Source: Escherichia phage Es2. Taken from it: a stretch of DNA of 64,000 nucleotides. The notes under the pieces were generated by a model. It saw only the letters and a program-made list of their open reading frames with translations. It ran no database searches and was not told the origin of the DNA. The stretch lies in the sequence record OR515477.1; one strand, given 5' to 3'. Shown in pieces: positions 23,059 to 45,243 of this stretch; position 1 is the stretch's first letter, and every line of letters begins with the position of its first letter. Made by a program: the position numbers and the translations under genes.

Positions 23059-23760
23059 ATGAAAGTAAAACCATTTGGTATGCTAGATATTGAATCTCTG
23101 GGAACTCCAGGAGATTGTGGTACTACTCATATCGCAATGCCTTCTTTCGCTTTTGTGGCTATGCATGGAATTGATAAAGACCCTGATCTAATATTTGTTA
23201 CTTTGGATGTGCAGGATCAGCTTAATTCTGGTGCCAAAGTTACAGCATCTACTCTAGCATTCTGGATGGATCAAGCTAAACATAGCCCGTCTGCTATCCA
23301 CATTATGGAAGCCATGAAGGAACGTAATCCAAAACTGATTGTCTTCCAAAATGGTAAACATCATTGCACTAATAAATTAGGCTCAAACTATGCTGCCTTC
23401 TCTATGGCTCAAAATATTATGGAGTTGGCTCTAGGTGAAAATGCTTTGTATTATGGCAACGGTCCAGAGTTTGATATGACTATCTACTCTGCAAACACGT
23501 TCCATGCTGGAACCAATGAAGAGGTAGTTCCGTGGAAATTCTGGAATTTGGGTAATGTTCGATCTCTTCGTAACCTCTGGATGCAAGCTGGATACAGTTA
23601 TAAAGCTCTAGAGACCGAAGGTATTAGCTGGGCAATAGCTAAAATGGAGAAGATGGACACCATTCGTTATGGGATCTATCCGGTTAAGCACGACCCTGCA
23701 TTTGATGCCTTAGTTGAAAGCTATTGTGTTGCAGCTATGATCGAAAAAATGAAAATTTGA
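23059..23760 (+). CDS. putative DEDDh-type 3'-5' exonuclease-like protein
   Basis: N-terminal MLDIESLG (D-x-E) and C-terminal KHDPAFDA (H-x-A-x-x-DA) resemble DnaQ/RNase T exonuclease motifs. Confidence 0.4.
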   Translation: MKVKPFGMLDIESLGTPGDCGTTHIAMPSFAFVAMHGIDKDPDLIFVTLDVQDQLNSGAKVTASTLAFWMDQAKHSPSAIHIMEAMKERNPKLIVFQNGKHHCTNKLGSNYAAFSMAQNIMELALGENALYYGNGPEFDMTIYSANTFHAGTNEEVVPWKFWNLGNVRSLRNLWMQAGYSYKALETEGISWAIAKMEKMDTIRYGIYPVKHDPAFDALVESYCVAAMIEKMKI

Positions 23761-24066: not shown

Positions 24067-24705
24067 ATGACTACTCGTATTTCTAAAACTCGCGCTCTGG
24101 CAACTATCAAATCTCTGGAAGCTAAAATCCGTAAAGCTACTGAACAACATCTTCTGATTGCTGTTGGTGAAGGTAAGGATAAAAACCAGGTTGTAGTTGG
24201 CGCTGCAATCGAAGTAGCTGATCTGTCTACTCGTATTAAGACTGATTTCCAATCTCTGCTGGATATGATGTCTCGGCGTGATCGTATTAAATCTGCTCTG
24301 ATTAAGAGCAATGCAGAAACAATCGTTGAGATCGGTTCTCGTAAGATGACTGTTGCGGAAGCAATTGAAGCTAAGCGTTCTATGGAACTTAAAGCTCAAC
24401 TGCTGGCTAACATGCGTAAGCAGTTCCATGCCGCTACGGTTAAGTTTAATACGCAGAAAGCACAGTTTGATGCTAAATACGAGCGTTTGCAGGACAGCAT
24501 GGCTACCCGCGATAAGAAAACTTCCGAAGATGAAGTTAAAATGCAGCTCAACCTGCTGGAACTCAAGAATACTCCATTCTTGATTGATCCGCTGGAACTG
24601 GAGAAGCTGATTAAGCAGCATGACGAGGAATACCAGGACTTTGCAACAAATGTTGACTTTGTTCTGTCCGAGTCTAACGCCTCTACCTTTATTGAAGTAG
24701 AGTAA
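24067..24705 (+). CDS. hypothetical protein
   Basis: 212 aa ORF, strong codon bias, coiled-coil-like. Confidence 0.55.
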   Translation: MTTRISKTRALATIKSLEAKIRKATEQHLLIAVGEGKDKNQVVVGAAIEVADLSTRIKTDFQSLLDMMSRRDRIKSALIKSNAETIVEIGSRKMTVAEAIEAKRSMELKAQLLANMRKQFHAATVKFNTQKAQFDAKYERLQDSMATRDKKTSEDEVKMQLNLLELKNTPFLIDPLELEKLIKQHDEEYQDFATNVDFVLSESNASTFIEVE

Positions 24706-25088: not shown

Positions 25089-25117
25089 TTGCTAATCTAC
25101 TAAATTATATGTATAAT
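25089..25117 (+). promoter_or_regulatory. early-type sigma70 promoter
   Basis: TTGCTA, 17 bp, TGTATAAT. Confidence 0.6.
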
Positions 25118-25147: not shown

Positions 25148-25465
25148 ATGACTTTTCATATTTTGATTGATGATGTGCGTAATCTTCACGGAATGGACAT
25201 TATCATTCGAACCCCAGAAGCCGCTGTAGAGTTTCTGAATAAAACTGATACCACAGGCCATTTCGTTTATATGGATAATGACTTGGCTGTAGATGGTATG
25301 GAAGGTTATCAAATTCTTCGTTTACTCTTAGAATTTGGGCAGAGACCAAAGAAAGTGGTACTAGTAACCTCGAACCCAGTAGCTAAGCAAAATATGCGTA
25401 ATGATTTGCTTGACTTAGGGTATAAAGAAAATCCCAATCGTGTTGAATATGATTGGCAGGAGTAA
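25148..25465 (+). CDS. hypothetical protein
   Basis: 105 aa ORF after promoter 25089-25117. Confidence 0.5.
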   Translation: MTFHILIDDVRNLHGMDIIIRTPEAAVEFLNKTDTTGHFVYMDNDLAVDGMEGYQILRLLLEFGQRPKKVVLVTSNPVAKQNMRNDLLDLGYKENPNRVEYDWQE

Positions 25466-25470: not shown

Positions 25471-25920
25471 ATGAAGGCAGCTTTGCTTTTAGTAGCTGCC
25501 CTTACCTTCAGCTTTAGTAGTCAGGCATCGCACGATGCAAAAGAAATAGATTGCATTGCTAAAAATATCTATTTCGAAAGTCGTGGTGAGGGCATAAAGG
25601 GAATGACGGCGATTGCACATGTTACTAAAAACCGTGTAAACTCCGGTAAATTCCCAGATTCCTACTGTAAAGTAGTATATCAGTCTAACCAGTTCTCTTG
25701 GGTATCTAAGAGACCAAAAGTTGATAAAACTGATGAGGCTTGGCAAACCGCTAAGAATTTAGCTAGAGTGATATACTACGTTGATTTACCACAAGATCCT
25801 ACACATGGAGCATTATACTTCCATAGTGGTAAAGATAAACCTTACTGGACAAAGAAATTTAAGAAAACAACTAAGATTAAGGGGCATACATTCTATAAAC
25901 CTGTTGTCACTAAAACTTAA
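25471..25920 (+). CDS. secreted SleB-like cell-wall hydrolase
   Basis: Signal peptide MKAALLLVAALTFSFSSQA then CIAKNIYFESRGE...AHVTKNRV...YCKVVYQSNQFSW (cell-wall hydrolase family signature). Confidence 0.6.
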   Translation: MKAALLLVAALTFSFSSQASHDAKEIDCIAKNIYFESRGEGIKGMTAIAHVTKNRVNSGKFPDSYCKVVYQSNQFSWVSKRPKVDKTDEAWQTAKNLARVIYYVDLPQDPTHGALYFHSGKDKPYWTKKFKKTTKIKGHTFYKPVVTKT

Positions 25921-25928
25921 AAATTTAC

Positions 25929-25957
25929 TTGCTTAAATACTTAAATTTCTGTATAAT
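25929..25957 (+). promoter_or_regulatory. early-type sigma70 promoter
   Basis: TTGCTT, 17 bp, TGTATAAT. Confidence 0.6.
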
Positions 25958-26853: not shown

Positions 26854-26925
26854 GCCGTCCTAGTATAATTGGTATTATCAAGCCGTAACTGGTGGAAGAT
26901 GTAGGTTCGAATCCTACGGTCGGTA
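26854..26925 (+). tRNA. tRNA-like (isotype undetermined)
   Basis: T-arm GTAGG-TTCGAAT-CCTAC and acceptor GCCGTCC/GGTCGGT, but no clean anticodon arm. Confidence 0.35.
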
Positions 26926-27427: not shown

Positions 27428-27499
27428 CGGGGTGTAGTCTAAGGGAGAGGCAGGAGTCTTCTAAATTCCTTTATGCAGGTTCGAATCCTGTCACCTCGG
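27428..27499 (+). tRNA. tRNA-Arg (anticodon TCT)
   Basis: Acceptor CGGGGTG/CACCTCG, anticodon loop CTTCTAA, T-arm GCAGG-TTCGAAT-CCTGT, CCA encoded. Confidence 0.7.
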
Positions 27500-27536
27500 C
27501 CAATTTTATTAACTGTAGCTAAAACAAAGGAAATAT

Positions 27537-28484
27537 ATGTTTAATACTAAAAATATGAAAGAACTGACTTCTGAGCAAAAAGTAATTCGCACTATTAAAC
27601 GTTGGGGTATTGGTGCTGTAGTTGGTTTAGCAGGTTTAGTTCTAGCTCTTAACTCCTATACCGTTGTTCAAGACGGTACTGTTAAGACCCAGACTTTCTT
27701 GGGTAAAGTTGATCCTAACCCTGTATTGCCGGGCTTTCATATTGTAAATCCTTTTGCTTCTTTTGATACTTTTAGTACTAAAGATATTGCTCTGAAATTA
27801 GATAAACTTCAGGTTCCTAGTCAGGATAAGTTTAAATCCACTGTTGACCTGACTGTTATGTTGCAGTTTGATGGTTCTAAAGCACCGATTAACCGTATTA
27901 ATGCAGGTACTCAGGATCAAGCATTAGACAAATATGTAACTGAAAAATTACTGTCTACTATTCGTGAGTTTGGTAAGTCTGTACCTAAAGCACAAGATTT
28001 ATTTGATGCTAAAATTCAGGCTCAATTGCAAACTGCAATTCAACAGGAAGTTGAAGAGTATGCACGCCCATATGGTTACACAGTTAAGCAGGTGTTTCTT
28101 CAGGATATTACTTTGCCACCGGTAATCATGGAACAGGTACAGAATACCAAAGTTCGTGAAGAACAGGTTAATGCTGCTAAAGCTGAATTAGCTCGTGTTG
28201 AACAGGAAGCACAGCAAAAAGTTAAACAAGCAGAAGCAGATCGTGAAGCTCGCAACAACCAAGCTATTGCTAACGAACGTGACGCAGATGCTAAGCTGTA
28301 TGCAGCTAAGAAAGAAGCTGAAGCTAACGCCGCATTGCAACGTACCATTACTCCTGAGATGATTCACTGGAAGCAACTGGAAGTTGAAATGATTCGTGCT
28401 CAGAAGTATCAGGGTGGTGTACCGCAGACTGTGGTTGGCACTGGCTATGATGGCCAAATGATTATGGATATGCGTAATAAATAA
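27537..28484 (+). CDS. SPFH/band-7 (prohibitin/HflKC-like) membrane protein
   Basis: N-terminal TM (WGIGAVVGLAGLVLAL), SPFH-like core, Ala/Gln/Glu-rich coiled-coil C-terminus. Confidence 0.6.
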   Translation: MFNTKNMKELTSEQKVIRTIKRWGIGAVVGLAGLVLALNSYTVVQDGTVKTQTFLGKVDPNPVLPGFHIVNPFASFDTFSTKDIALKLDKLQVPSQDKFKSTVDLTVMLQFDGSKAPINRINAGTQDQALDKYVTEKLLSTIREFGKSVPKAQDLFDAKIQAQLQTAIQQEVEEYARPYGYTVKQVFLQDITLPPVIMEQVQNTKVREEQVNAAKAELARVEQEAQQKVKQAEADREARNNQAIANERDADAKLYAAKKEAEANAALQRTITPEMIHWKQLEVEMIRAQKYQGGVPQTVVGTGYDGQMIMDMRNK

Positions 28485-28509
28485 TACCCGCATGTAACAT
28501 CTGAAGTAA

Positions 28510-28545
28510 GCCCTGCGTTTCCTGGAGAGCGCAGGGCTTTTCTAT
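28510..28545 (+). terminator. rho-independent terminator
   Basis: GCCCTGCG...CGCAGGGC hairpin followed by TTTTC. Confidence 0.6.
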
Positions 28546-28580
28546 ATAATGTATTTGTAAATCTAACTAGGAGATCAAAT

Positions 28581-29099
28581 ATGAATGTTGATGAGCTAAC
28601 ACAGCACCTCTTATCTAGAGGATTTGATACAGATAAATATCATTGCTGGTTAAGTCCAGCAGGGTGGCTAACAGTCCCGTTGTATGATTTCTCTGGGATG
28701 TTGAGGGGCTATCAAACTTATAATCCTTCTGCTCCAAAAGGTCATGGTAAGTGTCCCTTTGAAGCTAAATATTTTACCTATTCTACTACCCAGTGTGTAT
28801 GGGGATTAGAAACTCTCAATGGAGATGAAAAAGTAGTATTGGTCGCTGAATCTGTATTTAAGGCAGTTGCGTTACATAATGCTGGTTATCCAGCCCTAGC
28901 AATGTTGGGTTCTTCTCCAGGAAAAGCGTTATTAAAGCAACTGAAATTATTACCTTTTAAATTGGTAGCTGTCGGGGATAACGATCCTGCGGGTGAAAAA
29001 TTTGCTAGAAAATTAAACGGCTTTGTTTCTCCTGTAGATGTGGATGAGATGTCTACCGAAAACTTGAAAAATTTTCTTGCTATGAAGCTAAATTTCTAA
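28581..29099 (+). CDS. hypothetical protein
   Basis: 172 aa ORF with AGGAG RBS. Confidence 0.5.
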   Translation: MNVDELTQHLLSRGFDTDKYHCWLSPAGWLTVPLYDFSGMLRGYQTYNPSAPKGHGKCPFEAKYFTYSTTQCVWGLETLNGDEKVVLVAESVFKAVALHNAGYPALAMLGSSPGKALLKQLKLLPFKLVAVGDNDPAGEKFARKLNGFVSPVDVDEMSTENLKNFLAMKLNF

Positions 29100-29120
29100 T
29101 ATAATATATCTTATAAATTC

Positions 29121-29206
29121 GGAAGAATAGCATAATGGTATTGCAGCAGATTGCTAATCTGTCGGTTTGAAATATAGCCTTGTGGGTTCGATTCCCACTT
29201 CTTCCG
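29121..29206 (+). tRNA. tRNA-Ser (anticodon GCT)
   Basis: Acceptor GGAAGAA/TTCTTCC, anticodon loop TTGCTAA, long variable arm, T-arm GTGGG-TTCGATT-CCCAC, CCA encoded. Confidence 0.75.
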
Positions 29207-29215
29207 CCAGATTTT

Positions 29216-29290
29216 GGTTCTCAAGCTCATATGGTATGAGCACCCGGCTCATAACCGGAAGGTACGTAGGTTCGAATCCTCGGGGAGCCA
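29216..29290 (+). tRNA. tRNA-Met/Ile2 (anticodon CAT)
   Basis: Acceptor GGTTCTC/GGGAGCC, anticodon loop CTCATAA, TTCGAAT T-loop (T-stem imperfect), CCA encoded. Confidence 0.6.
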
Positions 29291-29312
29291 CCAACTTATT
29301 TAGGAGCTACAA

Positions 29313-29501
29313 GTGGAACTATACATAGTTTATGTTGTGTTTATTCAAGATAGAGAATATCCGGATGAGTATAAACAAGGGTATAGGTTAGCCAGGGCTA
29401 CCTCTGAAGCACAAGCTATGGATAAAGTAGCTGAGTATATGATTATGGTAGAAAATGTACACTATATCGACTCACTTGAAGCCTCAAAAGTAATTGAATA
29501 A
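29313..29501 (+). CDS. hypothetical protein
   Basis: 62 aa ORF. Confidence 0.4.
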   Translation: MELYIVYVVFIQDREYPDEYKQGYRLARATSEAQAMDKVAEYMIMVENVHYIDSLEASKVIE

Positions 29502-29510
29502 GGAGACTGT

Positions 29511-29696
29511 ATGTCCAAGTTTCAAGAACTCAAGCAAGAGCTAGAAGAATGTGCCTGCCCTGAGTGTAGGGGAATTGGTGAAAGTTCTGATGCAGAAGCA
29601 GGAGATACTTTTTGCAATATCTGGGTTTGCCCAAATTGCAATGGTACAGGTATTAATCCTAACTGTGGTATTTCTCTAGATATTGAAAGGGGATAA
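29511..29696 (+). CDS. small zinc-ribbon protein
   Basis: CACPECRG...CPNCNG paired CxxC motifs, AAGGAG RBS. Confidence 0.5.
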   Translation: MSKFQELKQELEECACPECRGIGESSDAEAGDTFCNIWVCPNCNGTGINPNCGISLDIERG

Positions 29697-29797
29697 TATC
29701 TGTGAAACTAAAAGATTATTATATTGGTTGGTTTGTGGGACTAGTAGTAGGATTTTCACTAGGCTATAATATGTATCAACTAATAAACTGATTACAC

Positions 29798-29871
29798 GGG
29801 GGTGTAATCGAATTGGCATAGGTACTGGACTTAAAATTCAGGTTTTGTGGGTTCGAATCCCACCACCCCTA
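29798..29871 (+). tRNA. tRNA with anticodon TAA (Leu-decoding; class I architecture)
   Basis: Acceptor GGGGGTG/CACCCCT, anticodon loop CTTAAAA, short variable arm, T-arm GTGGG-TTCGAAT-CCCAC, CCA encoded. Confidence 0.55.
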
Positions 29872-30049
29872 CCAAATTAAGGAAATAAGATGTATAGACA
29901 TCCACCTCCGCCAACACGTCGTTCTAGAGAAGTTATCCTCATGGAATTGACTAAAAACTTCAAGGCAACTCTTGAAGATAGAGATTTAGGCACGGATGAA
30001 GACATTGATTTTATTTGTAGACTATTAAAGATGAAATTGGAGAAACAAC

Positions 30050-30256
30050 ATGGCTAATCCTGAAATTACCGCACAACGTTTCATGCTTAAAGGCATGATT
30101 GCTGAAGCAGGTATGACTCAAGAGGTTGCAGACTTTCATAAGCAATTTCTTGATATTATAACTCTAGCTAAGGAGACTGGAGAAAAAGAGCACGCAGCAG
30201 CAATTATGGCTATATCTCTTATTAGTCTAGACTTGGCTGAAGAATCTGGAGTTTAG
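30050..30256 (+). CDS. hypothetical protein
   Basis: 68 aa ORF. Confidence 0.45.
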   Translation: MANPEITAQRFMLKGMIAEAGMTQEVADFHKQFLDIITLAKETGEKEHAAAIMAISLISLDLAEESGV

Positions 30257-30285
30257 CTCCTCCAAACAGAATTTTTAAAAATGTA

Positions 30286-30315
30286 CTTGCCTTTTGCTTT
30301 AAATTTCTGATATAA
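30286..30315 (+). promoter_or_regulatory. early-type sigma70 promoter
   Basis: TTGCCT, 18 bp, TATAAT. Confidence 0.5.
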
Positions 30316-30346
30316 TAGTTATATAAATTAATGAAGGAGTTAACAA

Positions 30347-30622
30347 ATGCAAAATCGTGTTATAGCAACTGGTATTGAAAGTGCAATCTGTAAATCCTGG
30401 GAAGGCTGGGAAGGTGAGATTGAATGGCTTTATTTCTACGATGTAGAACTTCTGCCGGAAGTTAAAGCTAAATGTGTTGAAGCTGGCATGGCTCCAGATG
30501 CAAAAGCTGATATTGATATTTCAATGTCTGAACTTAAAGGCCGTGTAATTACTGTTAGTGATGAGGGCGAAGAAGTTTTCGAACTTCCGTTCTCCTTAAC
30601 TGTCACTCCTAAGTTCGACTAA
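30347..30622 (+). CDS. hypothetical acidic protein
   Basis: 91 aa ORF, AAGGAG RBS after promoter 30286-30315. Confidence 0.5.
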   Translation: MQNRVIATGIESAICKSWEGWEGEIEWLYFYDVELLPEVKAKCVEAGMAPDAKADIDISMSELKGRVITVSDEGEEVFELPFSLTVTPKFD

Positions 30623-30658
30623 CTAATACAGCACTGAGCAAGTTCTTTAAAATTTGAC

Positions 30659-30687
30659 TTGCTCAGTGCCTTAAAACTTGGTATAAT
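30659..30687 (+). promoter_or_regulatory. early-type sigma70 promoter overlapping a 12 bp-stem hairpin
   Basis: TTGCTC, 17 bp, TGGTATAAT; -35 lies inside the inverted repeat GCACTGAGCAAG...CTTGCTCAGTGC (30631-30669). Confidence 0.55.
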
Positions 30688-30705
30688 AGTTATCTAATTT
30701 GGAAA

Positions 30706-30812
30706 CATATTTGAATGAGAAGTAACTAAGCGAGTTGCTTTGAGGGGTAAAGTCAGGATAGCCTGAAATATTCCACCTTGAGTTTAACCGACTTACTTTT
30801 CATTCAAATATG
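30706..30812 (+). ncRNA. long hairpin element (20 bp stem enclosing 67 nt) at start of tRNA-Tyr transcript
   Basis: CATATTTGAATGAGAAGTAA (30706-30725) pairs with TTACTTTTCATTCAAATATG (30793-30812); lies between promoter -10 (30682-30687) and tRNA-Tyr. Confidence 0.4.
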
Positions 30813-30890
30813 GGGGGGTTGGCTCAGAGGCGACGGCGCCTGGCTGTAGACCGGGTATACCACGCGGAGGTTCGAGTCCTCCATCCCCCA
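30813..30890 (+). tRNA. tRNA-Tyr (anticodon GTA)
   Basis: Acceptor GGGGGGT/ATCCCCC, anticodon loop CTGTAGA, extended variable region, T-arm GGAGG-TTCGAGT-CCTCC, CCA encoded. Confidence 0.6.
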
Positions 30891-30911
30891 CCAAATTACT
30901 AAGGAAATAAT

Positions 30912-31457
30912 ATGCACAATAAGTTAATAAATGAACTTCAAAAAAGACAAATAATAACAAAAACTAAGGAGTTTGATATAACTCCGGATTTAATAGTTGA
31001 ATGTTCGAAAGTTTACTTAGAGTTAAGTAACACAAAGGCTAAGAAAGTCTCTTTAGGAGATCTTAGATATAATGTTAAACTATTGTGCCTATCCTTAATT
31101 AAATTTAAGCAAGAAAATAAACTTCTCATAAAAGAAGGTTTCATATATTTTATAGCAAATAAGGCGTGGCCCAATTATTTTAAGATTGGTATGTCAGCTA
31201 ACCCAAAGAAACGTCTGGCTAACTATCAAACATATAGTCCTTTTAGGGATTATACAATGCTACACTGGTCTTTCTGGTTTGACAGAAAGGAAGGTGAAAA
31301 ATTTGTACATAGTCTCTACCAAGACAGAGATCATGAATGGGTTAGGCTGCCACAAAGAAAACTAAATAAAATATTTGAGCAAATAAATAAACTTTCTGGC
31401 CTAGAACACTTGGTACAGAAAGTTAATAGAGAAATAGTTAATGCACCTATCGTCTAA
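30912..31457 (+). CDS. GIY-YIG-like (T5orf172-type) domain protein
   Basis: FIYFIANKAWPNYFKIGMSANPKKRLANYQTYSP resembles the GIY-YIG/T5orf172 fold; 3' end overlaps tRNA-Glu. Confidence 0.5.
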   Translation: MHNKLINELQKRQIITKTKEFDITPDLIVECSKVYLELSNTKAKKVSLGDLRYNVKLLCLSLIKFKQENKLLIKEGFIYFIANKAWPNYFKIGMSANPKKRLANYQTYSPFRDYTMLHWSFWFDRKEGEKFVHSLYQDRDHEWVRLPQRKLNKIFEQINKLSGLEHLVQKVNREIVNAPIV

Positions 31458-31514
31458 TGGTTAGGACATCAGGATTTCAATCTGAGAATCGGAGTTCAAT
31501 TCTCCGTGGGTGTA
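31443..31514 (+). tRNA. tRNA-Glu (anticodon TTC)
   Basis: Acceptor GCACCTA/TGGGTGT, anticodon loop ATTTCAA, T-arm CGGAG-TTCAATT-CTCCG, CCA encoded. Confidence 0.7.
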
Positions 31515-31523
31515 CCAAATTCT

Positions 31524-31599
31524 GCATTCCTAGAGTGTTACTGGACAGCATGTCGGTCTCCAAAACCGTACGGTCTAGGTTCGAGTCCTAGTAGGTTTG
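31524..31599 (+). tRNA. tRNA-like, possible tRNA-Trp (anticodon CCA)
   Basis: Good T-arm CTAGG-TTCGAGT-CCTAG and anticodon loop CTCCAAA, but acceptor stem pairing is poor; ends approximate. Confidence 0.35.
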
Positions 31600-31608
31600 C
31601 CAAAATTT

Positions 31609-31680
31609 GCACCTTTAGCTGAGATGGATTAGCGCTTGCCTGAAGAGCTTGAGAGGTTCGTTCGATTCGAACAGGGTGCA
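31609..31680 (+). tRNA. tRNA, possible tRNA-Phe (anticodon GAA)
   Basis: Acceptor GCACCTT/AGGGTGC, T-arm GTTCG-TTCGATT-CGAAC, CCA encoded; anticodon stem weak (loop CTGAAGA). Confidence 0.5.
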
Positions 31681-31685
31681 CCAAT

Positions 31686-31973
31686 TTGAGGGAGCTGCTG
31701 ATGCATCCTGAAAACTTCTTTATTTACTGCGCTGATAAGTCGCTGAAACGTAGAATTAACAAAGTCTATCATTATAGTGCTAGTCAACAGCCTTATGTAT
31801 ACGCTTTTGACGGTGATCACATTCCACTAGAACAATTATCTTGTGATTACATGATATTGAAGAACTTTGATGAGACGAAGATCTCGAGCGTTCATAATCG
31901 ACAGAATCCATTGACGTGGAAATATAAGAAGAAAAAGAAAGGCATCAAATTCTTAAAAAATGTAGTTGCTTAG
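31686..31973 (+). CDS. hypothetical protein
   Basis: 95 aa ORF; a promoter overlaps its 3' end. Confidence 0.45.
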   Translation: MRELLMHPENFFIYCADKSLKRRINKVYHYSASQQPYVYAFDGDHIPLEQLSCDYMILKNFDETKISSVHNRQNPLTWKYKKKKKGIKFLKNVVA

Positions 31974-31994
31974 TTTCCAAAAGTTCTGTATAAT
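31966..31994 (+). promoter_or_regulatory. early-type sigma70 promoter
   Basis: TTGCTT, 17 bp, TGTATAAT. Confidence 0.6.
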
Positions 31995-32005
31995 AATTAC
32001 ATAAA

Positions 32006-32248
32006 TTGAACTGGAGAAGCAACATGACAGAACAAGAATTGAATGAACGTAAGCTGGTAATGCTTCGCTTACTAAATATTTTCTCTGGTATGGACGGTGG
32101 AATTGACTTTGTTCATCTACGTTCTTTCGTAGAAGAAGCTGAAGGCGAATCTATCACTAAAATCCTTAAACACATGGGATTACTTTTAGATGCTGCTAAT
32201 GTGGCTACTGAATATAAAATAGAAGATCTACCGGAGCGTGTTAAATGA
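32006..32248 (+). CDS. hypothetical protein
   Basis: 80 aa ORF after promoter 31966-31994. Confidence 0.5.
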   Translation: MNWRSNMTEQELNERKLVMLRLLNIFSGMDGGIDFVHLRSFVEEAEGESITKILKHMGLLLDAANVATEYKIEDLPERVK

Positions 32249-32436
32249 AACGATTAGTTAGATTTAAGTGTTGTGGTTCCGAGCACATTTTCACACATCT
32301 TCGTGAATTTAAAATGTGTGATTGTGGTAAATCAGGCTATGACTCAGGAGATGGGTTCTACACCCGTACTCTAGGGAACTTCAATGATCTAGAATTTGAA
32401 GATCTCGAAAAACAAGATAAACCGACCGTTGGCTGA
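32245..32436 (+). CDS. small Cys-rich protein
   Basis: 63 aa, CCGSEH...CDCG motif; 3' end overlaps tRNA-Cys. Confidence 0.45.
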   Translation: MKRLVRFKCCGSEHIFTHLREFKMCDCGKSGYDSGDGFYTRTLGNFNDLEFEDLEKQDKPTVG

Positions 32437-32495
32437 ATGGCTTAGGCGAAGGATTGCAAATCCTTTTTATGTGAGTTCAAATCTCATGCGGTCGT
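32423..32495 (+). tRNA. tRNA-Cys (anticodon GCA)
   Basis: Acceptor CGACCGT/GCGGTCG, anticodon stem-loop AAGGA-TTGCAAA-TCCTT, T-arm GTGAG-TTCAAAT-CTCAT, CCA encoded. Confidence 0.7.
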
Positions 32496-32501
32496 CCAAT
32501 T

Positions 32502-32640
32502 TGCTGAAAGAATTGTTAAATCAATTCAGGCACGCGTAGGAACACTGTCTCCGTAATTGAAAGATGAGGCACGGTTTGGAGAGGTATGCCGCTACACGCT
32601 ACGGTGCTAACTCCGTCTAGGTGAAAATCCTAGTCAGCAA
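32502..32640 (+). ncRNA. long tRNA-like element (~139 nt)
   Basis: 7 bp acceptor-like pairing TTGCTGA/TCAGCAA, D-arm-like hairpin GAATTG-TTAAAT-CAATTC, T-arm-like CTAGG-TGAAAAT-CCTAG; no ORF. Confidence 0.35.
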
Positions 32641-32650
32641 TATAAATTTA

Positions 32651-32730
32651 GGGTCGTTAGCCAAGCGGTTTGGCGGTGGACTGTTAATCCATGTCGAAAG
32701 ACAACGTAGGTTCGAATCCTACACGGCCCG
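32651..32730 (+). tRNA. tRNA-Asn (anticodon GTT)
   Basis: Acceptor GGGTCGT/ACGGCCC, anticodon loop CTGTTAA, extended variable region, T-arm GTAGG-TTCGAAT-CCTAC, CCA encoded. Confidence 0.65.
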
Positions 32731-32835
32731 CCAAATTCTGTGTAGAGTTAAGTAAACCGGTAGCCAACCAGCTATCATTGCTGATATCGAATTCAGCCAC
32801 AGATACCATTTTCATTAATAACTGAGGAAACAAGC

Positions 32836-33021
32836 ATGTCCAAGAATGTAATTGCACAGCTAGAAGTTCATCGTGATAACACAGCTAATAACATTAAGTG
32901 CCGACAAAAAGATATTGAAGCTCGAAAGGCTGATCTTTTAATGAGTATTCGAGAGCTTAATGTACGGAAAGAGTTTCTTAAAGAACTTAATGCAGCTATT
33001 GAAAAACTCAAAGTTGAGTAA
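32836..33021 (+). CDS. hypothetical protein
   Basis: 61 aa ORF, coiled-coil-like. Confidence 0.4.
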   Translation: MSKNVIAQLEVHRDNTANNIKCRQKDIEARKADLLMSIRELNVRKEFLKELNAAIEKLKVE

Positions 33022-33030
33022 ATAAATTAT

Positions 33031-33104
33031 GCGACCGGGGCTGGCTTGGTAATGGTACTCCCCTGTCACGGGAGGGAATGTGGGTTCAAATCCCATCGGT
33101 CGCG
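33031..33104 (+). tRNA. tRNA-Asp (anticodon GTC)
   Basis: Acceptor GCGACCG/CGGTCGC, anticodon stem-loop CTCCC-CTGTCAC-GGGAG, T-arm GTGGG-TTCAAAT-CCCAT, CCA encoded. Confidence 0.75.
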
Positions 33105-33132
33105 CCAAATTAATTTAGTATGAGAATATACT

Positions 33133-33480
33133 ATGCGTAATGCTAAAGAAGAGTTGTTACTTGCCTTAAAAAATACTAATTCTGAAGTTAAATGTATTAA
33201 AATAGAATTCGGGTATTATGGGGATAAAAAAGTTTGGGTATTACCTTTAGGTTATACAGAAAAAGATATTGAGGATTTTCTTAATAATCTAGACTTTAAG
33301 TACGATTCTGGGTATGGTGGGCAATTACTTTATGGTAATGTATGGTTTGCCGACGGAACTTGGCTAGAACGTGGGGAATACGATGGTGCTGAGTGGTGGG
33401 AGTACAAAGCTACCCCGGAAATTCCAGAGGAATGCCGAACAATTAATGGTGAAGTAGATAATACTTTACTATTAAACTAA
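33133..33480 (+). CDS. hypothetical protein
   Basis: 115 aa ORF. Confidence 0.5.
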   Translation: MRNAKEELLLALKNTNSEVKCIKIEFGYYGDKKVWVLPLGYTEKDIEDFLNNLDFKYDSGYGGQLLYGNVWFADGTWLERGEYDGAEWWEYKATPEIPEECRTINGEVDNTLLLN

Positions 33481-33602
33481 AAGAATTTCAGTGCAGAACA
33501 CGGAGCTAGCAATTCGGAAGTGCTGACTCATGATAAGCTGCCTATGTACTTGCTAAGCGGTCGTGTCCAAGACTCGGACTCTTGCACTGAAAACAATCAA
33601 AC

Positions 33603-33723
33603 ATTCTAGCGTGGTTGATGGGGAAACCAGCTTGGCTAGGGCAGAAGCTCGTTCGATTCGAGTGAAAGAATGGTTCTCGTAAGTCCGCACAAGTGATAGC
33701 AGGTTCGAGTCCTGTCTAGAATG
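33603..33723 (+). ncRNA. long tRNA-like element (~121 nt)
   Basis: Perfect 7 bp acceptor pairing ATTCTAG/CTAGAAT, T-arm GCAGG-TTCGAGT-CCTGT, internal second T-arm-like GCTCG-TTCGATT-CGAGT; too long for a canonical tRNA. Confidence 0.4.
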
Positions 33724-33731
33724 ACACTATA

Positions 33732-33859
33732 AAGTTTACTTATTATGTAGGTTCCGATAGATCGGCGGGTCTATTCTGGCATTTAAGAGAAGTCTCGCAA
33801 ACTTCTTTGTCAGCCGTGGGGTTGGTAGCCTCCAGGTGGCCTACACAATAAGTAAATTT
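33732..33859 (+). ncRNA. long hairpin element (20 bp stem enclosing ~88 nt)
   Basis: AAGTTTACTTATTATGTAGG (33732-33751) pairs with CCTACACAATAAGTAAATTT (33840-33859); sub-hairpins inside; no ORF. Confidence 0.4.
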
Positions 33860-33872
33860 ATTAAAAATTCAT

Positions 33873-33901
33873 TTGCTATTTTTCTTAATTATCTGTATAA
33901 T
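33873..33901 (+). promoter_or_regulatory. early-type sigma70 promoter
   Basis: AAAAATTCATTTGCTA, 17 bp, TGTATAAT. Confidence 0.6.
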
Positions 33902-33933
33902 ATATTTTATAAAGTGAAGAGAAGGAAAGCAAA

Positions 33934-34092
33934 ATGAAACACAAGATAGCCCAAGTTTTTATGGCATTATGGTGTATGCCAATAGCTATAACAGCATTTA
34001 ATCTAGATACTTTTACTATAGAAGAAAAATGTATCGGATTAGTTAGCGGCTTTAGTATGCTTGGCTTATCTTTGTTGTGGTTGAAGAAATAA
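33934..34092 (+). CDS. small hydrophobic protein
   Basis: 52 aa ORF MKHKIAQVFMALWCMPIAITAF... after promoter 33873-33901; below track cutoff. Confidence 0.4.
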   Translation: MKHKIAQVFMALWCMPIAITAFNLDTFTIEEKCIGLVSGFSMLGLSLLWLKK

Positions 34093-34096
34093 TATT

Positions 34097-34171
34097 CTCC
34101 GTGTAGCTCAGTTTGGCCAGAGCGTTTCGTTTGGGGCGATAGGGTCGGGGGTTCAAATCCTCCCACGGAGA
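34097..34171 (+). tRNA. tRNA-Pro (anticodon TGG)
   Basis: Acceptor CTCCGTG/CACGGAG, D-arm GCTC..GAGC, anticodon loop TTTGGGG, T-arm GGGGG-TTCAAAT-CCTCC, CCA encoded. Confidence 0.7.
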
Positions 34172-34180
34172 CCAAACAAT

Positions 34181-34255
34181 TGCGGGTTAGATCTCTGGTA
34201 GAGATCGCTAGTCTCATAAGCTAGAAAGAGGTAGGTTCGATTCCTGCACCCGCTT
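34181..34255 (+). tRNA. tRNA-Met/Ile2 (anticodon CAT)
   Basis: Acceptor TGCGGGT/ACCCGCT (1-72 mismatch), anticodon stem-loop CTAGT-CTCATAA-GCTAG, T-arm GTAGG-TTCGATT-CCTGC, CCA encoded. Confidence 0.65.
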
Positions 34256-34278
34256 CCATTTTAATAGAGGATTTCGAA

Positions 34279-34446
34279 ATGAAAGTATTTCGATTAGTAG
34301 TAAGTGACAAACGGTTAGGTAAGAATACATCAAAATCCCTACTCGCTCATTACGGTAAAAATTGGGATGAAGTAATGGCAGAGTTTAGTACTAATCACCC
34401 TTACTTGAAAGTTCACTCTATTAAAGAAGTATATAATGGTTACTAA
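34279..34446 (+). CDS. hypothetical small protein
   Basis: 55 aa ORF with GAGGA RBS between tRNAs; below track cutoff. Confidence 0.4.
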   Translation: MKVFRLVVSDKRLGKNTSKSLLAHYGKNWDEVMAEFSTNHPYLKVHSIKEVYNGY

Positions 34447-34447
34447 T

Positions 34448-34523
34448 AGATCGCTAGCTCAATAGGTTTAGTAGCATCCGACTTTTAATCGGAAGGTTCT
34501 GGGTTCGAGTCCCAGGCGATCTA
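34448..34523 (+). tRNA. tRNA-Lys (anticodon TTT)
   Basis: Acceptor AGATCGC/GCGATCT, anticodon stem-loop TCCGA-CTTTTAA-TCGGA, T-arm CTGGG-TTCGAGT-CCCAG, CCA encoded. Confidence 0.75.
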
Positions 34524-34530
34524 CCAAATT

Positions 34531-34601
34531 GCTCGGTTAGTTTAATGGGAGAACCCCGTCTTTACACGGCGGTTGAGATAGTTCAATTCTATCACCGAGT
34601 A
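34531..34601 (+). tRNA. tRNA-Val (anticodon TAC)
   Basis: Acceptor GCTCGGT/ACCGAGT, anticodon loop TTTACAC, T-arm GATAG-TTCAATT-CTATC, CCA encoded. Confidence 0.7.
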
Positions 34602-34623
34602 CCAATTAACTCAAAATAAGGAA

Positions 34624-34983
34624 TTGCAAATGCAATTATCAAGCAAGATTCAAGGTTATTTCGGTCATGTAACAATGGAGTTCGCTATCTCTAAAGGTTG
34701 GGACTTCGAACAAGATTTAGCTGAGTTCTACAAAGATATTGATCTGAACGTACCGTACATGGGACTTTCTACTGGTCAGGAGATCACAGAAGCCGATGTA
34801 TTCAAGGCAAGTCAAGGTGAGGTAACACCTAGTTTTGCCGAGTTCTGGTTAGGCATTACGTTAAAAGAAGATGCACCAGATAGTGGTGTACTAATGTCTA
34901 GTATGCACTCTGGAAGTTCCGATTACCTTTTCATTAGCGATGTTAAGGAAATACAAGAAGTCTGCAAAAATGTACTTGCTTGA
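34624..34983 (+). CDS. hypothetical protein
   Basis: 119 aa ORF with AAGGA RBS. Confidence 0.5.
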   Translation: MQMQLSSKIQGYFGHVTMEFAISKGWDFEQDLAEFYKDIDLNVPYMGLSTGQEITEADVFKASQGEVTPSFAEFWLGITLKEDAPDSGVLMSSMHSGSSDYLFISDVKEIQEVCKNVLA

Positions 34984-35318: not shown

Positions 35319-35326
35319 CCAAATAC

Positions 35327-35603: not shown

Positions 35604-35618
35604 CCAAACAATTTATAT

Positions 35619-35710: not shown

Positions 35711-35716
35711 CCAAAT

Positions 35717-44176: not shown

Positions 44177-44833
44177 TTGGAAAAGTTCTTACAATTATTA
44201 ACGGTACTGCTCCAAGAAGCGAAAGATCCAGCATCGCTTCTTAAACGTCTGCTAACTATCTTAGTTGCTGTCATTATTTTCTTATTTGTTAGTAATACTA
44301 GCGAGGTGATGTCATTCTTAAAGACTTTCTCCACGTCTGCGGTTCTACAGGATGTTCAAACTCAAAGGATAGATAACTTTCCTAATGTAGCTAGAGAAAA
44401 AAGCATGGTACTCTTTTCTCAAACGGGTGCGGATGCTGTTTTTGTCGTCAAGTATAAACCCGATGCCATTAATGATTATTCTAACATTATTGCATGGGAA
44501 AGCAATGCGCAATTAGATAGGGCTGACTTGGCCGATAAAGCGGTAAATAAAACGTCTGAGCTATATAGACGTCACTTGGAAGGCTTTAACTACGCATCGG
44601 ATTTAAGTGTAAAAGTAAATAAATACATGGGGTTAGATATACCTGCGTTTAAGAACGTTACTTTTAATTACATATACACTTGTCCATATTTCAATCTAAA
44701 CAATATCTATGCTGGATATATTGGTATTGCTTGGAAAGATAATCCTGTAGATGCAGCCGATTCTGAGAAATTTAACGAGTATTTAACAAAGCTCTGTTCC
44801 CCACAACAGAGATCTTTAGGTAGATCAATATGA
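44177..44833 (+). CDS. putative holin
   Basis: 218 aa with N-terminal TM (LTILVAVIIFLFV), directly upstream of and overlapping the endolysin gene. Confidence 0.6.
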   Translation: MEKFLQLLTVLLQEAKDPASLLKRLLTILVAVIIFLFVSNTSEVMSFLKTFSTSAVLQDVQTQRIDNFPNVAREKSMVLFSQTGADAVFVVKYKPDAINDYSNIIAWESNAQLDRADLADKAVNKTSELYRRHLEGFNYASDLSVKVNKYMGLDIPAFKNVTFNYIYTCPYFNLNNIYAGYIGIAWKDNPVDAADSEKFNEYLTKLCSPQQRSLGRSI

Positions 44834-45243
44834 GTTTTAAATTTGGTAAAAATAGTGAAAAACAATTAGCTACCGTTAAGCCAGAGCTACAAAAAGTAGC
44901 TCGTAGAGCTTTAGAATTATCTCCATATGATTTCACGATCGTACAGGGTATTCGTACAGTAGCACAAAGTGCCCAGAATATTGCTAATGGTACTTCATTT
45001 TTAAAAGATCCTAGTAAAAGCAAGCATATTACTGGGGATGCCCTTGATTTTGCTCCATATATTAATGGCAAAATTGATTGGAATGATTTAGAAGCATTTT
45101 GGGCAGTTAAAAAGGCTTTTGAACAAGCAGGTAAAGAACTAGGCATTAAACTTCGTTTTGGTGCTGATTGGAATGCTTCGGGAGACTATCACGATGAAAT
45201 AAAACGTGGTACCTATGATGGCGGTCATGTCGAACTAGTTTAA
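44830..45243 (+). CDS. lys: endolysin, L-alanyl-D-glutamate peptidase type
   Basis: 137 aa; H..D...H metal-site pattern (KHITGDALD ... DGGHVELV); matches the T5 endolysin as recalled from memory. Confidence 0.75.
   Translation: MSFKFGKNSEKQLATVKPELQKVARRALELSPYDFTIVQGIRTVAQSAQNIANGTSFLKDPSKSKHITGDALDFAPYINGKIDWNDLEAFWAVKKAFEQAGKELGIKLRFGADWNASGDYHDEIKRGTYDGGHVELV

What the first reader, a model, noticed from the sequence alone, without database searches (positions are those of the whole stretch)
25471..25920. Secreted SleB-like cell-wall hydrolase in addition to the lysis-cassette endolysin
A signal-peptide-bearing protein with the cell-wall hydrolase (SleB-like) signature is encoded 19 kb from the holin/endolysin pair (44177-45243). 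A second, exported peptidoglycan hydrolase is not needed for canonical lysis; it could act at DNA entry, in superinfection exclusion, or on neighbouring cells.
Basis: partly seen in the sequence, partly recalled or inferred. Interest (0 to 1): 0.45.

Follow-up and report, generated by a model that had tools for sequence, protein, structure and literature searches.

The report
Exported SleB-like wall hydrolase of T5
This is the well-conserved, already annotated gene T5.083 of T5-like phages: a small cell-wall-cutting enzyme that carries an export signal and sits far from the normal lysis genes. Its existence is ordinary knowledge, but its actual job has never been tested.

Summary
Window 25471-25920 (+) encodes a 149-aa protein with a full-length Pfam Hydrolase_2 (SleB/CwlJ) domain (89.7 bits; cut-off 27). 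A confident AlphaFold model matches only SleB catalytic domains. The N-terminus has classic Sec signal-peptide anatomy (MK / AALLLVAALTFSF / SSQA|S).

The window is a T5-like phage and the gene is T5.083/T5p081 (97% identical), annotated with PF07486 in the original T5 records. Papers from 2012 and 2024 already note it as a second "endolysin" far from the holin. It occurs in about as many T5-like records as the canonical M15 endolysin (520 vs 526) and is under purifying selection (dN/dS 0.07-0.17). Among 81 relatives, the motif glutamate E36 (81/81), a C28/C66 pair (80/80) and an export signal (78/79) are conserved.

Most likely it is a Sec-exported, holin-independent periplasmic glycan-strand cleaver (probable lytic transglycosylase) that assists EndoT5 in destroying the sacculus or remodels it. 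The role is inferred, not shown.

A DNA-entry role is unlikely, because pb2C does that job and an exported protein cannot enter cytoplasmically assembled virions. Nothing supports superinfection exclusion or action on neighbouring cells.

It is not an ortholog of spore SleB (50 bits vs a 236.5-bit cut-off). Already known; low-to-moderate interest.

The parts
25471..25920 (+). Gene for the exported SleB/CwlJ-family (Hydrolase_2) cell wall hydrolase, the ortholog of T5.083/T5p081. The pre-protein is 149 aa (16.9 kDa).
25471..25527 (+). Predicted Sec (SPase I) signal peptide, residues 1-19 (MKAALLLVAALTFSFSSQA), with predicted cleavage before S20. The mature protein would be about 130 aa, 14.9 kDa, pI 9.7.
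   Evidence: Rule-based analysis. The layout is conserved in 78/79 homologs. pLDDT is 63-72 for residues 1-20 against more than 90 for the domain. Cleavage has not been shown experimentally.
25552..25896 (+). Catalytic domain, from about residue 28 to 142. It contains the YFESRGE motif with the invariant E36 (codon 25576-25578) and the conserved cysteines C28 (25552-25554) and C66 (25666-25668).
   Evidence: Pfam match covers residues 39-142. E36 is present in 81/81 sequences and C28+C66 in 80/80. Both cysteines are absent in 4MG, PAK_P5 and Bacillus SleB.
25457..25461 (+). Shine-Dalgarno AGGAG. It lies inside the last codons of the upstream gene, and there is a 5-nt gap between the upstream stop codon and the ATG, which suggests translational coupling.
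   Evidence: Sequence read directly.
25148..25465 (+). Upstream co-transcribed gene encoding a single-domain cREC_REC protein (the T5.084 ortholog). It is part of the operon; no functional link to the hydrolase has been shown.
   Evidence: Pfam PF20274, 56.8 bits; T5 annotation. It is not upstream of the hydrolase in Klebsiella phage GZ8.
25089..25117 (+). Sigma-70-type promoter-like site TTGCTA-17-TATAAT. Its position corresponds to the promoter annotated upstream of T5.084 in T5.
   Evidence: (10/12 match; such sites are not enriched over shuffles in this AT-rich region) and the T5 annotation. Function is inferred.
25927..25955 (+). Next promoter (TTGCTT-17-TATAAT), equivalent to T5 'P-D/E 33'. 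It lies immediately after the hydrolase stop codon and starts the next transcription unit (DUF7616 gene and the PHROG-1460 gene).
   Evidence: Sequence; T5 annotation.
44177..45243 (+). Canonical lysis pair used for comparison: a T-type holin (44177-44833) and EndoT5, an M15 L-alanyl-D-glutamate peptidase (44830-45243).

Best explanation
The gene encodes a small, single-domain member of the SleB/CwlJ (Pfam Hydrolase_2) family of peptidoglycan glycan-strand cleaving enzymes. It is made during infection by a T5-like phage and exported to the periplasm.

Proposed steps:
1. Host RNA polymerase transcribes the gene from an early sigma-70-type promoter as the second cistron behind a cREC_REC gene. 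This is inferred from the T5 annotation and the sequence.
2. The 19-residue signal peptide routes the pre-protein through Sec, and leader peptidase cuts after Ser-Gln-Ala19. This is inferred from the anatomy and its conservation.
3. The mature protein of about 15 kDa (pI 9.7) folds in the periplasm, probably with a C28-C66 disulfide. This is inferred from the strict co-conservation of the two cysteines.
4. Glu36 of the YFESRGE motif acts as the single catalytic acid that cleaves the MurNAc-GlcNAc bond, most likely as a lytic transglycosylase. This is inferred by homology to SleB.
5. The enzyme therefore reaches the murein independently of the holin. It acts as an accessory that attacks the glycan strands, while the holin-released EndoT5 attacks the peptide stems. 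The two together would weaken or finish off the sacculus. This role is the least certain step.
For: Identity and fold.

Orthology to T5.083/T5p081 at 97% identity.

Real, selected gene: dN/dS is 0.07 against T5 and 0.16 against Klebsiella phage GZ8. It is present in about 520 T5-like records, against 526 for EndoT5. T5st0 retains it even though the st0 deletion ends two genes away.

Export: n/h/c anatomy with SQA|S; 78/79 homologs have a hydrophobic N-terminus plus an AXA-like site. C28/C66 occur in 80/80 sequences and are both missing in lineages that lack the pair.

Catalysis: E36 is present in 81/81 sequences. It aligns to the ESRGE motif of SleB, whose catalytic glutamate is essential (PMC12331253).

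SleB-fold enzymes act on E. coli murein from the periplasm. The T6SS effector T6EC3 rounds and bursts E. coli, and an E-to-Q change at the aligned glutamate abolishes toxicity (PMC11148199). A soluble SleB of Zymomonas shapes the wall, and its overexpression impairs growth (bioRxiv 2026.07.21.739787).

Phage precedent: the signal-peptide SleB-like protein CB7_83 is toxic in E. coli, and its homolog CR3_087 is 'implicated in host lysis' (PMC7344957).

Complementary bond specificity: the partner enzyme here is the L-Ala-D-Glu peptidase EndoT5. An M15 peptidase plus a SleB-like protein also co-occur in Septuagintavirus and in CB7.
Against: No experiment on T5.083 or any T5-like ortholog was found.

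The signal peptide was judged by rules and conservation, not by SignalP or N-terminal sequencing.

The chemistry is unproven for any phage member. Several genome papers call the domain an amidase, and the lytic transglycosylase assignment rests on Bacillus SleB.

Bacillus SleB needs muramic-delta-lactam, which E. coli murein lacks, so the substrate preference here is unknown.

An active periplasmic murein hydrolase made from an early promoter should threaten premature lysis, and the model does not explain how that is avoided.

The pairing with an M15 peptidase is not general. Phapecoctavirus pairs Hydrolase_2 with a GH24 lysozyme. Many Pseudomonas phages have the hydrolase but few have an EndoT5-like enzyme (172 vs 22 records).
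Confidence: 0.55

Rival explanations
1. Early murein remodelling unrelated to lysis. The exported enzyme acts through the latent period as a controlled lytic transglycosylase. It might relax the sacculus for cell enlargement, interfere with septation, or alter murein turnover, rather than contribute to the final burst.
For: The gene lies in the early cluster behind a sigma-70-type promoter, 18 kb from the holin.

Homologs in at least six other phage lineages also sit among nucleotide-metabolism and replication genes rather than next to annotated holins. These are PAK_P5 (DNA ligase, dCMP deaminase), 4MG (RNA ligase), CHOED (RNA polymerase) and three metagenomic phage contigs (RNR, ThyX, RNase H, UvdE).

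Cellular SleB of Zymomonas is a housekeeping remodelling enzyme that affects morphology and daughter-cell separation.
Against: In T5 the holin and EndoT5 genes are themselves in the 'early' cluster (introduction of PMC8624392), so map position does not separate lysis from non-lysis functions.

No remodelling phenotype is known for T5 infection from the papers held. Related phage proteins are toxic or lytic when expressed alone.
Confidence: 0.2
2. It is a self-sufficient exported endolysin of the signal-peptide or SAR type. It would be held inactive at or near the membrane until the holin collapses the proton-motive force, which would make it a second, redundant lysis system.
For: All phage members belong to PHROG 938, 'endolysin'. 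All carry N-terminal hydrophobic segments. In CHOED, 4MG and CB7 a small membrane protein flanks the gene. Some metagenomic relatives (the 159-aa group) have Ser/Thr-rich, weakly hydrophobic N-termini without a clear AXA site, which is more SAR-like.
Against: In the T5-like proteins the h-region is only about 13 residues, has no Gly, and is followed by a canonical SQA|S site that is conserved as small-x-Ala across orthologs. That points to a cleaved signal, not a signal-anchor-release domain.

Neither neighbour in this window is a membrane protein. The flanking small proteins elsewhere are not recognised holins. T5 already has a complete large-hole T-type holin plus a cytoplasmic endolysin.
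Confidence: 0.12
3. These are (a) a virion-associated lysin that acts at DNA entry, or (b) a superinfection-exclusion factor or an agent released to attack neighbouring cells.
For: (a) None was found. (b) The mature protein is strongly basic (pI 9.7), a feature common among lysins of Gram-negative-infecting phages, and it would be released at lysis.
Against: (a) The export signal is incompatible with packaging into cytoplasmically assembled virions. The gene is in the early, non-structural region. T5 uses pb2C to digest murein at entry. AKFV33 virion MS found only capsid, tail, fibre and pb2. The PA5oct SleB-domain protein was not in virions.

(b) No known exclusion mechanism uses a murein hydrolase. 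T5 exclusion is assigned to the Llp lipoprotein that blocks FhuA (title and abstract of PMC9586334). The outer membrane shields the murein of neighbouring cells, and the basic C-terminus is part of the folded beta-sheet rather than a free amphipathic helix.
Confidence: 0.05
4. A catalytically weak or inactive murein-binding protein, or a dispensable relic carried along in the variable tRNA region.
For: It lies at the edge of the deletable tRNA region. No phenotype has ever been reported for it.
Against: The motif glutamate and about a dozen other positions are invariant across relatives as low as 30-40% identical. dN/dS is 0.07-0.17. The gene is nearly universal in T5-like genomes and is retained in T5st0.
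Confidence: 0.05

Closest known systems
T5.083 / T5p081 of Escherichia phage T5 (YP_006911.1, AAU05220.1) and its orthologs across Demerecviridae (for example AKFV33 ORF81)
   Same: It is the same gene. It is 97% identical to T5 and 100% identical to AKFV33 ORF81. The length (149 aa), the neighbours (T5.084 cREC_REC upstream; promoter P-D/E 33 and T5.082 downstream) and the position at the edge of the tRNA region are all the same.
   Different: Nothing material: four amino-acid differences from T5.
Spore cortex-lytic enzyme SleB of Bacillus (PDB 4f55, 4fet) and the single-domain paralog CwlJ
   Same: The catalytic fold and the ESRGE motif with the catalytic glutamate. Like CwlJ, it consists of the catalytic domain only.
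   Different: About 30% identity. It lacks the N-terminal peptidoglycan-binding domain of SleB. It fails the NCBIfam spore_SleB equivalog cut-off (50.3 vs 236.5 bits). It has a Cys pair that SleB lacks. The host murein has no muramic-delta-lactam. There is no YpeB-type partner or spore context.
Signal-peptide SleB-like proteins of Vequintavirinae (CB7_83, CR3_087, Septuagintavirus; 4MG gp079)
   Same: An exported Hydrolase_2 protein in a large virulent phage of enterobacteria, encoded apart from a second muralytic enzyme that is an M15 peptidase in several of them. All fall in PHROG 938.
   Different: About 40% identity. These proteins are longer (about 176 aa) and lack the C28/C66 pair. Some have an adjacent small membrane protein proposed as a holin, which the T5-like gene lacks.
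T6SS effector T6EC3 (a SleB structural homolog) and soluble SleB of Zymomonas mobilis
   Same: These are SleB-fold enzymes that work on Gram-negative murein from the periplasm. The essential glutamate is at the equivalent position.
   Different: The delivery route differs (T6SS versus Sec, cellular housekeeping versus phage). T6EC3 has a cognate periplasmic immunity protein, and no equivalent is evident next to the phage gene.
Sec-exported endolysin Lys44 of Oenococcus phage fOg44 and SAR endolysins (P1 Lyz, phage 21 R21); the comparison with these is from my own knowledge, not tested here
   Same: Holin-independent export of a phage muralytic enzyme through the Sec system.
   Different: Those are the sole endolysins of their phages and sit in lysis cassettes. 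Here the exported enzyme is additional to a cytoplasmic endolysin and is unlinked to the holin. The T5-like N-terminus looks cleavable rather than SAR-like.

Membership tests
Pfam Hydrolase_2 (PF07486; SleB/CwlJ catalytic domain) | Full-length match to the family HMM above the gathering threshold | tested here: met
   89.7 bits against a 27-bit cut-off, covering profile positions 1-100 of 100.
Pfam Hydrolase_2 (PF07486; SleB/CwlJ catalytic domain) | SleB catalytic-domain fold | tested here: met
   The AF2 model has pLDDT 90.1. The only significant PDB matches are 4f55 and 4fet, with target-normalised TM 0.71-0.79.
Pfam Hydrolase_2 (PF07486; SleB/CwlJ catalytic domain) | Catalytic glutamate in the ESRGE motif | tested here: met
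   E36 aligns to the motif in 4f55 and is present in 81/81 homologs. That this glutamate is the catalytic one is taken from the literature. I could not read the residue number in the original structure papers.
Pfam Hydrolase_2 (PF07486; SleB/CwlJ catalytic domain) | Lytic transglycosylase chemistry (1,6-anhydro-MurNAc products) | not testable with these tools
   This needs muropeptide analysis of digested sacculi.
Spore cortex-lytic enzyme SleB proper (NCBIfam TIGR02869 equivalog) | Score above the equivalog cut-off, with the two-domain architecture (N-terminal PG-binding domain plus catalytic domain) | tested here: not met
   50.3 bits against a 236.5-bit cut-off. Only profile positions 79-201 match. 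The protein has a single domain after the signal peptide.
Spore cortex-lytic enzyme SleB proper (NCBIfam TIGR02869 equivalog) | Dependence on muramic-delta-lactam in the substrate | not testable with these tools
   The host is an enterobacterium whose murein lacks this modification (established knowledge), so a different specificity is expected.
Canonical holin-dependent (cytoplasmic) endolysin | No export signal; gene linked to the holin gene | tested here: not met
   An N-terminal signal peptide is present. The gene is 18.3 kb from the holin, and neither neighbour is a membrane protein. That role is filled by EndoT5 at 44830-45243.
Sec-exported (signal-peptide) phage muralytic enzyme | Cleavable n/h/c signal peptide with a small-x-small site directly before the catalytic domain | tested here: met
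   Rule-based: K2; a 13-residue h-region; SQA|S at 19|20. This is conserved in 78/79 homologs, with the site 5-9 residues before C28. It is not confirmed by a trained predictor or by experiment.
Sec-exported (signal-peptide) phage muralytic enzyme | Actual export and processing in vivo | not testable with these tools
   This needs PhoA/Bla fusions or N-terminal sequencing. Indirect support comes from the subfamily-specific conserved Cys pair.
SAR (signal-anchor-release) endolysin | Uncleaved, weakly hydrophobic Gly/Ala-rich N-terminal transmembrane domain of about 20 residues | tested here: not met
   No 19-residue window reaches TM-grade hydrophobicity. There is no Gly in the h-region, and a canonical cleavage site is present. 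This is a heuristic judgement only.
Virion-associated lysin (entry enzyme) | Encoded in the structural module, or fused to a tail or baseplate protein, and present in virions | tested here: not met
   It is a stand-alone gene in the early region between RNase H/thymidylate synthase and the tRNA cluster. T5's entry muralytic activity is pb2C. Virion proteomics for this exact protein could not be read.

The most novel reading that the evidence does not exclude
The exported SleB-like enzyme is harmless on intact murein and acts only on glycan strands whose peptide stems have been trimmed. This would echo SleB's preference for stem-less muramic-delta-lactam cortex. It could then accumulate safely in the periplasm from early in infection and become active only once the holin releases the L-Ala-D-Glu peptidase EndoT5. 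The result would be a two-enzyme, substrate-gated lysis system.

More broadly, 'early-region, holin-unlinked, Sec-exported Hydrolase_2' would be a conserved module shared by several unrelated lineages of virulent phages of Gram-negative bacteria (T5-like, Vequintavirinae, Nankokuvirus/Pakpunavirus and uncultured phages), with a role distinct from that of classical endolysins.
Probability: 0.12. Interest if true: 0.6.

Novelty: already known. Interest (0 to 1): 0.25.

Why it matters
The existence of this gene adds nothing new. It has been annotated in T5 since the genome was deposited and is present in hundreds of sequenced T5-like phages.

What is still open is its function. T5 carries three murein-active proteins (pb2C for entry, EndoT5 for lysis, and this exported enzyme), and the role of the third has never been tested even though it is strictly conserved.

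If it proves to be a holin-independent helper of lysis or an early wall-remodelling factor, that would refine the lysis model for a classic phage. It would also explain why many large virulent phages of Gram-negative bacteria carry a 'second endolysin'. And it would flag a small, basic, naturally secreted muralytic domain for enzybiotic work.

The practical caveat is for annotation. The labels 'endolysin', 'spore cortex-lytic enzyme precursor' and 'N-acetylmuramoyl-L-alanine amidase' attached to this gene in databases all go beyond the evidence.

Tried and rejected
1. Peptidoglycan-recycling module. In Klebsiella phage GZ8 a 'metallopeptidase' lies directly upstream of the hydrolase, and in this window one lies 1.7 kb upstream (T5 records note 'M14 carboxypeptidase'). 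I considered a link between a transglycosylase and an MpaA-like peptidase. Pfam instead identifies both proteins as Rv2179c-like 3'-5' exoribonucleases, so I dropped the idea.

2. Adjacent holin or immunity partner. The flanking genes here (cREC_REC upstream, DUF7616 downstream) have no transmembrane segment. The small membrane proteins next to the CHOED and 4MG homologs are not recognised holins in PHROGs.

3. Truncation in Klebsiella T5-like phages. The tblastn match stops at residue 119, but the GZ8 gene is full length (153 aa) with a diverged C-terminus. It is not a pseudogene.

4. Functional link with the upstream cREC_REC gene. The pairing is not conserved in GZ8 and no rationale was found.

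5. Virion proteomics for the phiR2-01 ortholog g072. The supplementary tables are not held.

6. Residue numbering of the SleB catalytic glutamate in the two 2012 structure papers. Neither paper is held.

7. Functional literature on T5.083. Searches for 'T5.083', for T5 with SleB, for Tequintavirus with cell wall hydrolase, and inside recent T5 papers gave only annotation-level mentions.

8. Bacterial relatives. Sixty chromosomal or MAG loci at 28-43% identity exist, mostly in Proteobacteria. The two neighbourhoods I examined were uninformative or mixed (CobT in one, a small terminase subunit in the other), and I did not pursue them.

9. The C28-C66 distance in the model could not be measured, because model coordinates are not exposed.
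Full report
**What is at the coordinates.** Window 25471-25920 (+) is an intact ORF running from ATG to TAA and encoding 149 aa. An AGGAG Shine-Dalgarno sequence lies 8 nt upstream, inside the last codons of the preceding gene, with only 5 nt between that gene's stop codon and the ATG.
- The protein matches Pfam Hydrolase_2 (PF07486, 'Cell Wall Hydrolase', the SleB/CwlJ catalytic domain) over the entire profile, at 89.7 bits against a 27-bit cut-off.
- It matches PHROG 938 'endolysin' at E 5.5e-30.
- It matches the crystallised catalytic domains of Bacillus SleB at E 3e-8.
- An AlphaFold2 model built on 26 homologs is confident (mean pLDDT 90.1, pTM 0.82). A Foldseek search of the PDB returns only SleB catalytic domains as significant hits (TM 0.71-0.79 normalised to the target, rmsd 2.4-2.9 A).

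The hydrolase signature is therefore real and far beyond chance.

**The export signal.** No trained predictor was available, so I judged the N-terminus by its anatomy and its conservation.
- Residues 1-19 read MK / AALLLVAALTFSF / SSQA, followed by S. That gives one positive charge, a 13-residue hydrophobic core (9-residue Kyte-Doolittle maximum 2.96) and a -3/-1 site (S-Q-A|S).
- No 19-residue window reaches transmembrane-grade hydrophobicity.
- In the model, residues 1-20 have pLDDT 63-72 against more than 90 for the domain.
- Among the 81 database relatives (down to about 33% identity), 78 of the 79 with an intact N-terminus have a hydrophobic core followed by an AXA-like motif. Examples are SQA|S, SHA|T, AYA|T, VQA|Q, AIA|S, VVA|K, VSA|S, AKA|N and VQA|N. 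The motif lies 5-9 residues before the first conserved residue of the domain, although the signal sequences themselves are not conserved.
- Two cysteines, C28 and C66, are present in 80 of 80 relatives with an intact N-terminus. Both are absent in the more distant phage homologs of 4MG and PAK_P5 and in Bacillus SleB. This both-or-neither pattern fits a disulfide formed in an oxidising compartment. I could not measure the distance in the model.

I therefore accept the signal peptide as very probable but not demonstrated.

**What genome this is, and whether the finding is new.** The surrounding 6 kb is 97% identical to many E. coli and Salmonella T5-like phages (Demerecviridae, Tequintavirus).
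- The gene is the ortholog of T5.083 (NC_005859 42290-42739, labelled 'endolysin') and of T5p081 in T5st0. The T5st0 record annotates it as 'cell wall hydrolase homolog; contains cell wall hydrolase motif (PF07486)'. The proteins differ at four positions.
- The AKFV33 genome paper (2012) lists 'cell wall hydrolase SleB (ORF81)' together with the lysozyme and holin of the early region (PMC3326045). The AKFV33 protein is 100% identical to the window protein.
- A 2024 paper on Salmonella phages explicitly points out that T5-like genomes have an M15 endolysin next to the holin and a second 'endolysin, far from holin' with a SleB domain. It leaves open which enzyme the phage uses (PMC11180984).

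So both the observation and the puzzle are already in the literature. I found no functional experiment on it.

**Is it a real, maintained gene?** Yes.
- dN/dS is 0.07 against T5 and 0.16 against Klebsiella phage GZ8 (62% amino-acid identity).
- tblastn finds the protein at 60% identity or better in about 520 phage records. The canonical endolysin, counted the same way, is found in 526.
- The T5st0 deletion of the tRNA region ends two genes downstream and leaves the gene intact.
- The motif glutamate E36 (YFESRGE) is present in 81 of 81 relatives. Y34, R55, Q74, W77, H139 and F141 are also invariant or nearly so.

**Genomic setting.**
- The gene is the second cistron behind a 105-aa single-domain cREC_REC protein (PF20274; the T5.084 ortholog).
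- A TTGCTA-17-TATAAT site at 25089-25117 corresponds to the promoter annotated upstream of T5.084.
- The next annotated T5 promoter (P-D/E 33) starts right after the hydrolase stop codon.
- Upstream lie RNase H, thymidylate synthase and dihydrofolate reductase. Downstream lie the 23-tRNA cluster and an SPFH protein.
- The holin (Phage_holin_T, 377.9 bits) and EndoT5 (PDB 2mxz, 303.6 bits over the full length) are at 44177-45243, 18.3 kb away.
- One caution applies. T5's 'early' cluster also contains the lysis genes (introduction of PMC8624392), so the map position alone does not say that the hydrolase acts early.

**Relatives elsewhere.** The family is common in phages of Gram-negative bacteria: 1,328 phage records have a tblastn match.
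- In PAK_P5 the homolog sits between DNA ligase and DprA/helicase genes. In 4MG it is next to RNA ligase. In CHOED it is next to RNA polymerase.
- In three metagenomic phage contigs it lies among ribonucleotide reductase, ThyX, RNase H, UvdE and dGTP diphosphohydrolase genes.
- All these proteins have hydrophobic N-termini and all fall in PHROG 938.
- For Vequintavirinae, the CB7 paper reports that the SleB-like protein has a signal peptide, is toxic when expressed in E. coli, has a homolog (CR3_087) implicated in host lysis, and is followed by a small two-TMD protein proposed as a holin (PMC7344957).
- Septuagintavirus combines an M15C peptidase with a SleB-like hydrolase, as T5 does. Phapecoctavirus combines a GH24 lysozyme with Hydrolase_2.
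- In this window neither neighbour is a membrane protein.
- Chromosomal relatives at 28-43% identity occur in many Proteobacteria.
- A soluble SleB of Zymomonas was recently shown to matter for wall cross-linking, morphology and stress tolerance.
- A T6SS effector with the SleB fold rounds and bursts E. coli when active in the periplasm, and toxicity depends on the glutamate aligned with SleB's catalytic residue (PMC11148199).

SleB-fold enzymes therefore can act on ordinary Gram-negative murein from the periplasmic side.

**Most likely mechanism.**
- Shown by sequence and structure prediction: a single SleB/CwlJ-type catalytic domain with the catalytic motif intact, preceded by a cleavable-looking Sec signal.
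- Inferred: export, cleavage after A19, a C28-C66 disulfide, and cleavage of the MurNAc-GlcNAc bond (probably as a lytic transglycosylase, by homology to SleB).
- Proposed role: a holin-independent accessory that attacks glycan strands while the holin-released EndoT5 cuts the L-Ala-D-Glu bond of the stems.

I give the whole statement about 0.55. Taken alone, the identity-and-export part would be about 0.9.

The main weakness is that an active periplasmic murein hydrolase made from an early promoter should risk premature lysis. Possible explanations are low expression, intrinsically limited activity on intact murein, or substrate gating by EndoT5 (the speculative 'novel case'). None of these could be tested here.

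**Rivals.**
- Early wall remodelling unrelated to lysis: 0.2.
- A self-sufficient signal-peptide or SAR-type second endolysin: 0.12.
- A dispensable or inactive relic: 0.05.

The entry idea is weak for four reasons. The protein is exported rather than packaged. It is encoded outside the structural module. T5's entry muralytic activity is the pb2C fragment of the tape-measure protein (PMC10038345). And the SleB-domain protein of PA5oct was absent from virions.

**Membership.** The protein is a member of Pfam Hydrolase_2.
- It is not an ortholog of spore SleB. The NCBIfam equivalog model gives 50.3 bits against a cut-off of 236.5 and matches only the catalytic part. The N-terminal peptidoglycan-binding domain is missing, and the host lacks muramic-delta-lactam.
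- It does not fit the definition of a canonical cytoplasmic endolysin, because it has a signal and is unlinked to the holin.
- It does not fit a SAR endolysin, because the h-region is short and Gly-free and is followed by a canonical cleavage site.
- The database labels 'endolysin', 'spore cortex-lytic enzyme precursor' and 'amidase' are therefore all stronger than the evidence.

**Verdict.** The feature is already known as an annotated, conserved T5 gene that has been noted in print as a second 'endolysin'. Its function is an open but modest question. Interest 0.25.

Noticed in passing
window 26854-26925 (+): A tRNA-like element scores 35.5 bits on Rfam RF00005 (gathering score 29), but ARAGORN does not call it. 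It lies in the stretch that the T5 record annotates as the stable 'RNAX' of unknown function, just upstream of tRNA-Arg. Some relatives annotate it as 'tRNA' or 'tRNA-OTHER'.
   Followed up: partly
window 25148-25465 (+): A stand-alone 105-aa cREC_REC ('cyclic-phosphate processing receiver') domain protein (PF20274, 56.8 bits). It appears translationally coupled to the hydrolase gene and sits next to a large tRNA cluster. Its role in the phage is unknown. It is not upstream of the hydrolase in Klebsiella phage GZ8.
   Followed up: partly
window 23059-23760 (+): This gene is widely annotated 'metallopeptidase', 'M14 peptidase' or 'exonuclease' in T5-like records. Pfam instead matches it to the Rv2179c-like 3'-5' exoribonuclease domain (33.1 bits; cut-off 27). 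The database names conflict.
   Followed up: partly
window 27537-28484 (+): The T5.080 ortholog, labelled 'lipoprotein' in the T5 reference, is an SPFH/Band 7 domain protein (64.2 bits).
   Followed up: no
window 24067-24705 (+): A 212-aa protein in the early region is labelled 'tail fiber protein' by PHROG 1491 and many records, but it has no Pfam match and is far from the structural genes. The label looks doubtful.
   Followed up: no
window 45321-45737 (+): A 138-aa protein with an N-terminal hydrophobic segment lies immediately after EndoT5 (PHROG 5944, function unknown). A quick scan of 43300-47000 on the + strand found no lipobox-bearing ORF. The spanin component of this lysis cassette was therefore not identified here.
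   Followed up: partly
window 27428-37912 (+): A cluster of 23 tRNA genes on one strand, interspersed with small ORFs, as is typical of T5.
   Followed up: no
phage database records OR847290.1 and OR848346.1 (hits H87, H88): Short records named 'Listeria phage LM 4-11-1 / 4-14-1' encode a protein 100% identical to this window's EndoT5. They are probably mislabelled or contaminant T5-like fragments.
   Followed up: no
L003 2296-2475 (Vibrio phage CHOED) and L005 2922-3095 (Escherichia phage 4MG): Small proteins of 57-59 aa with one or two predicted transmembrane segments lie directly next to the Hydrolase_2 genes of these phages. They are holin-like in topology but PHROGs does not recognise them as holins.
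   Followed up: partly
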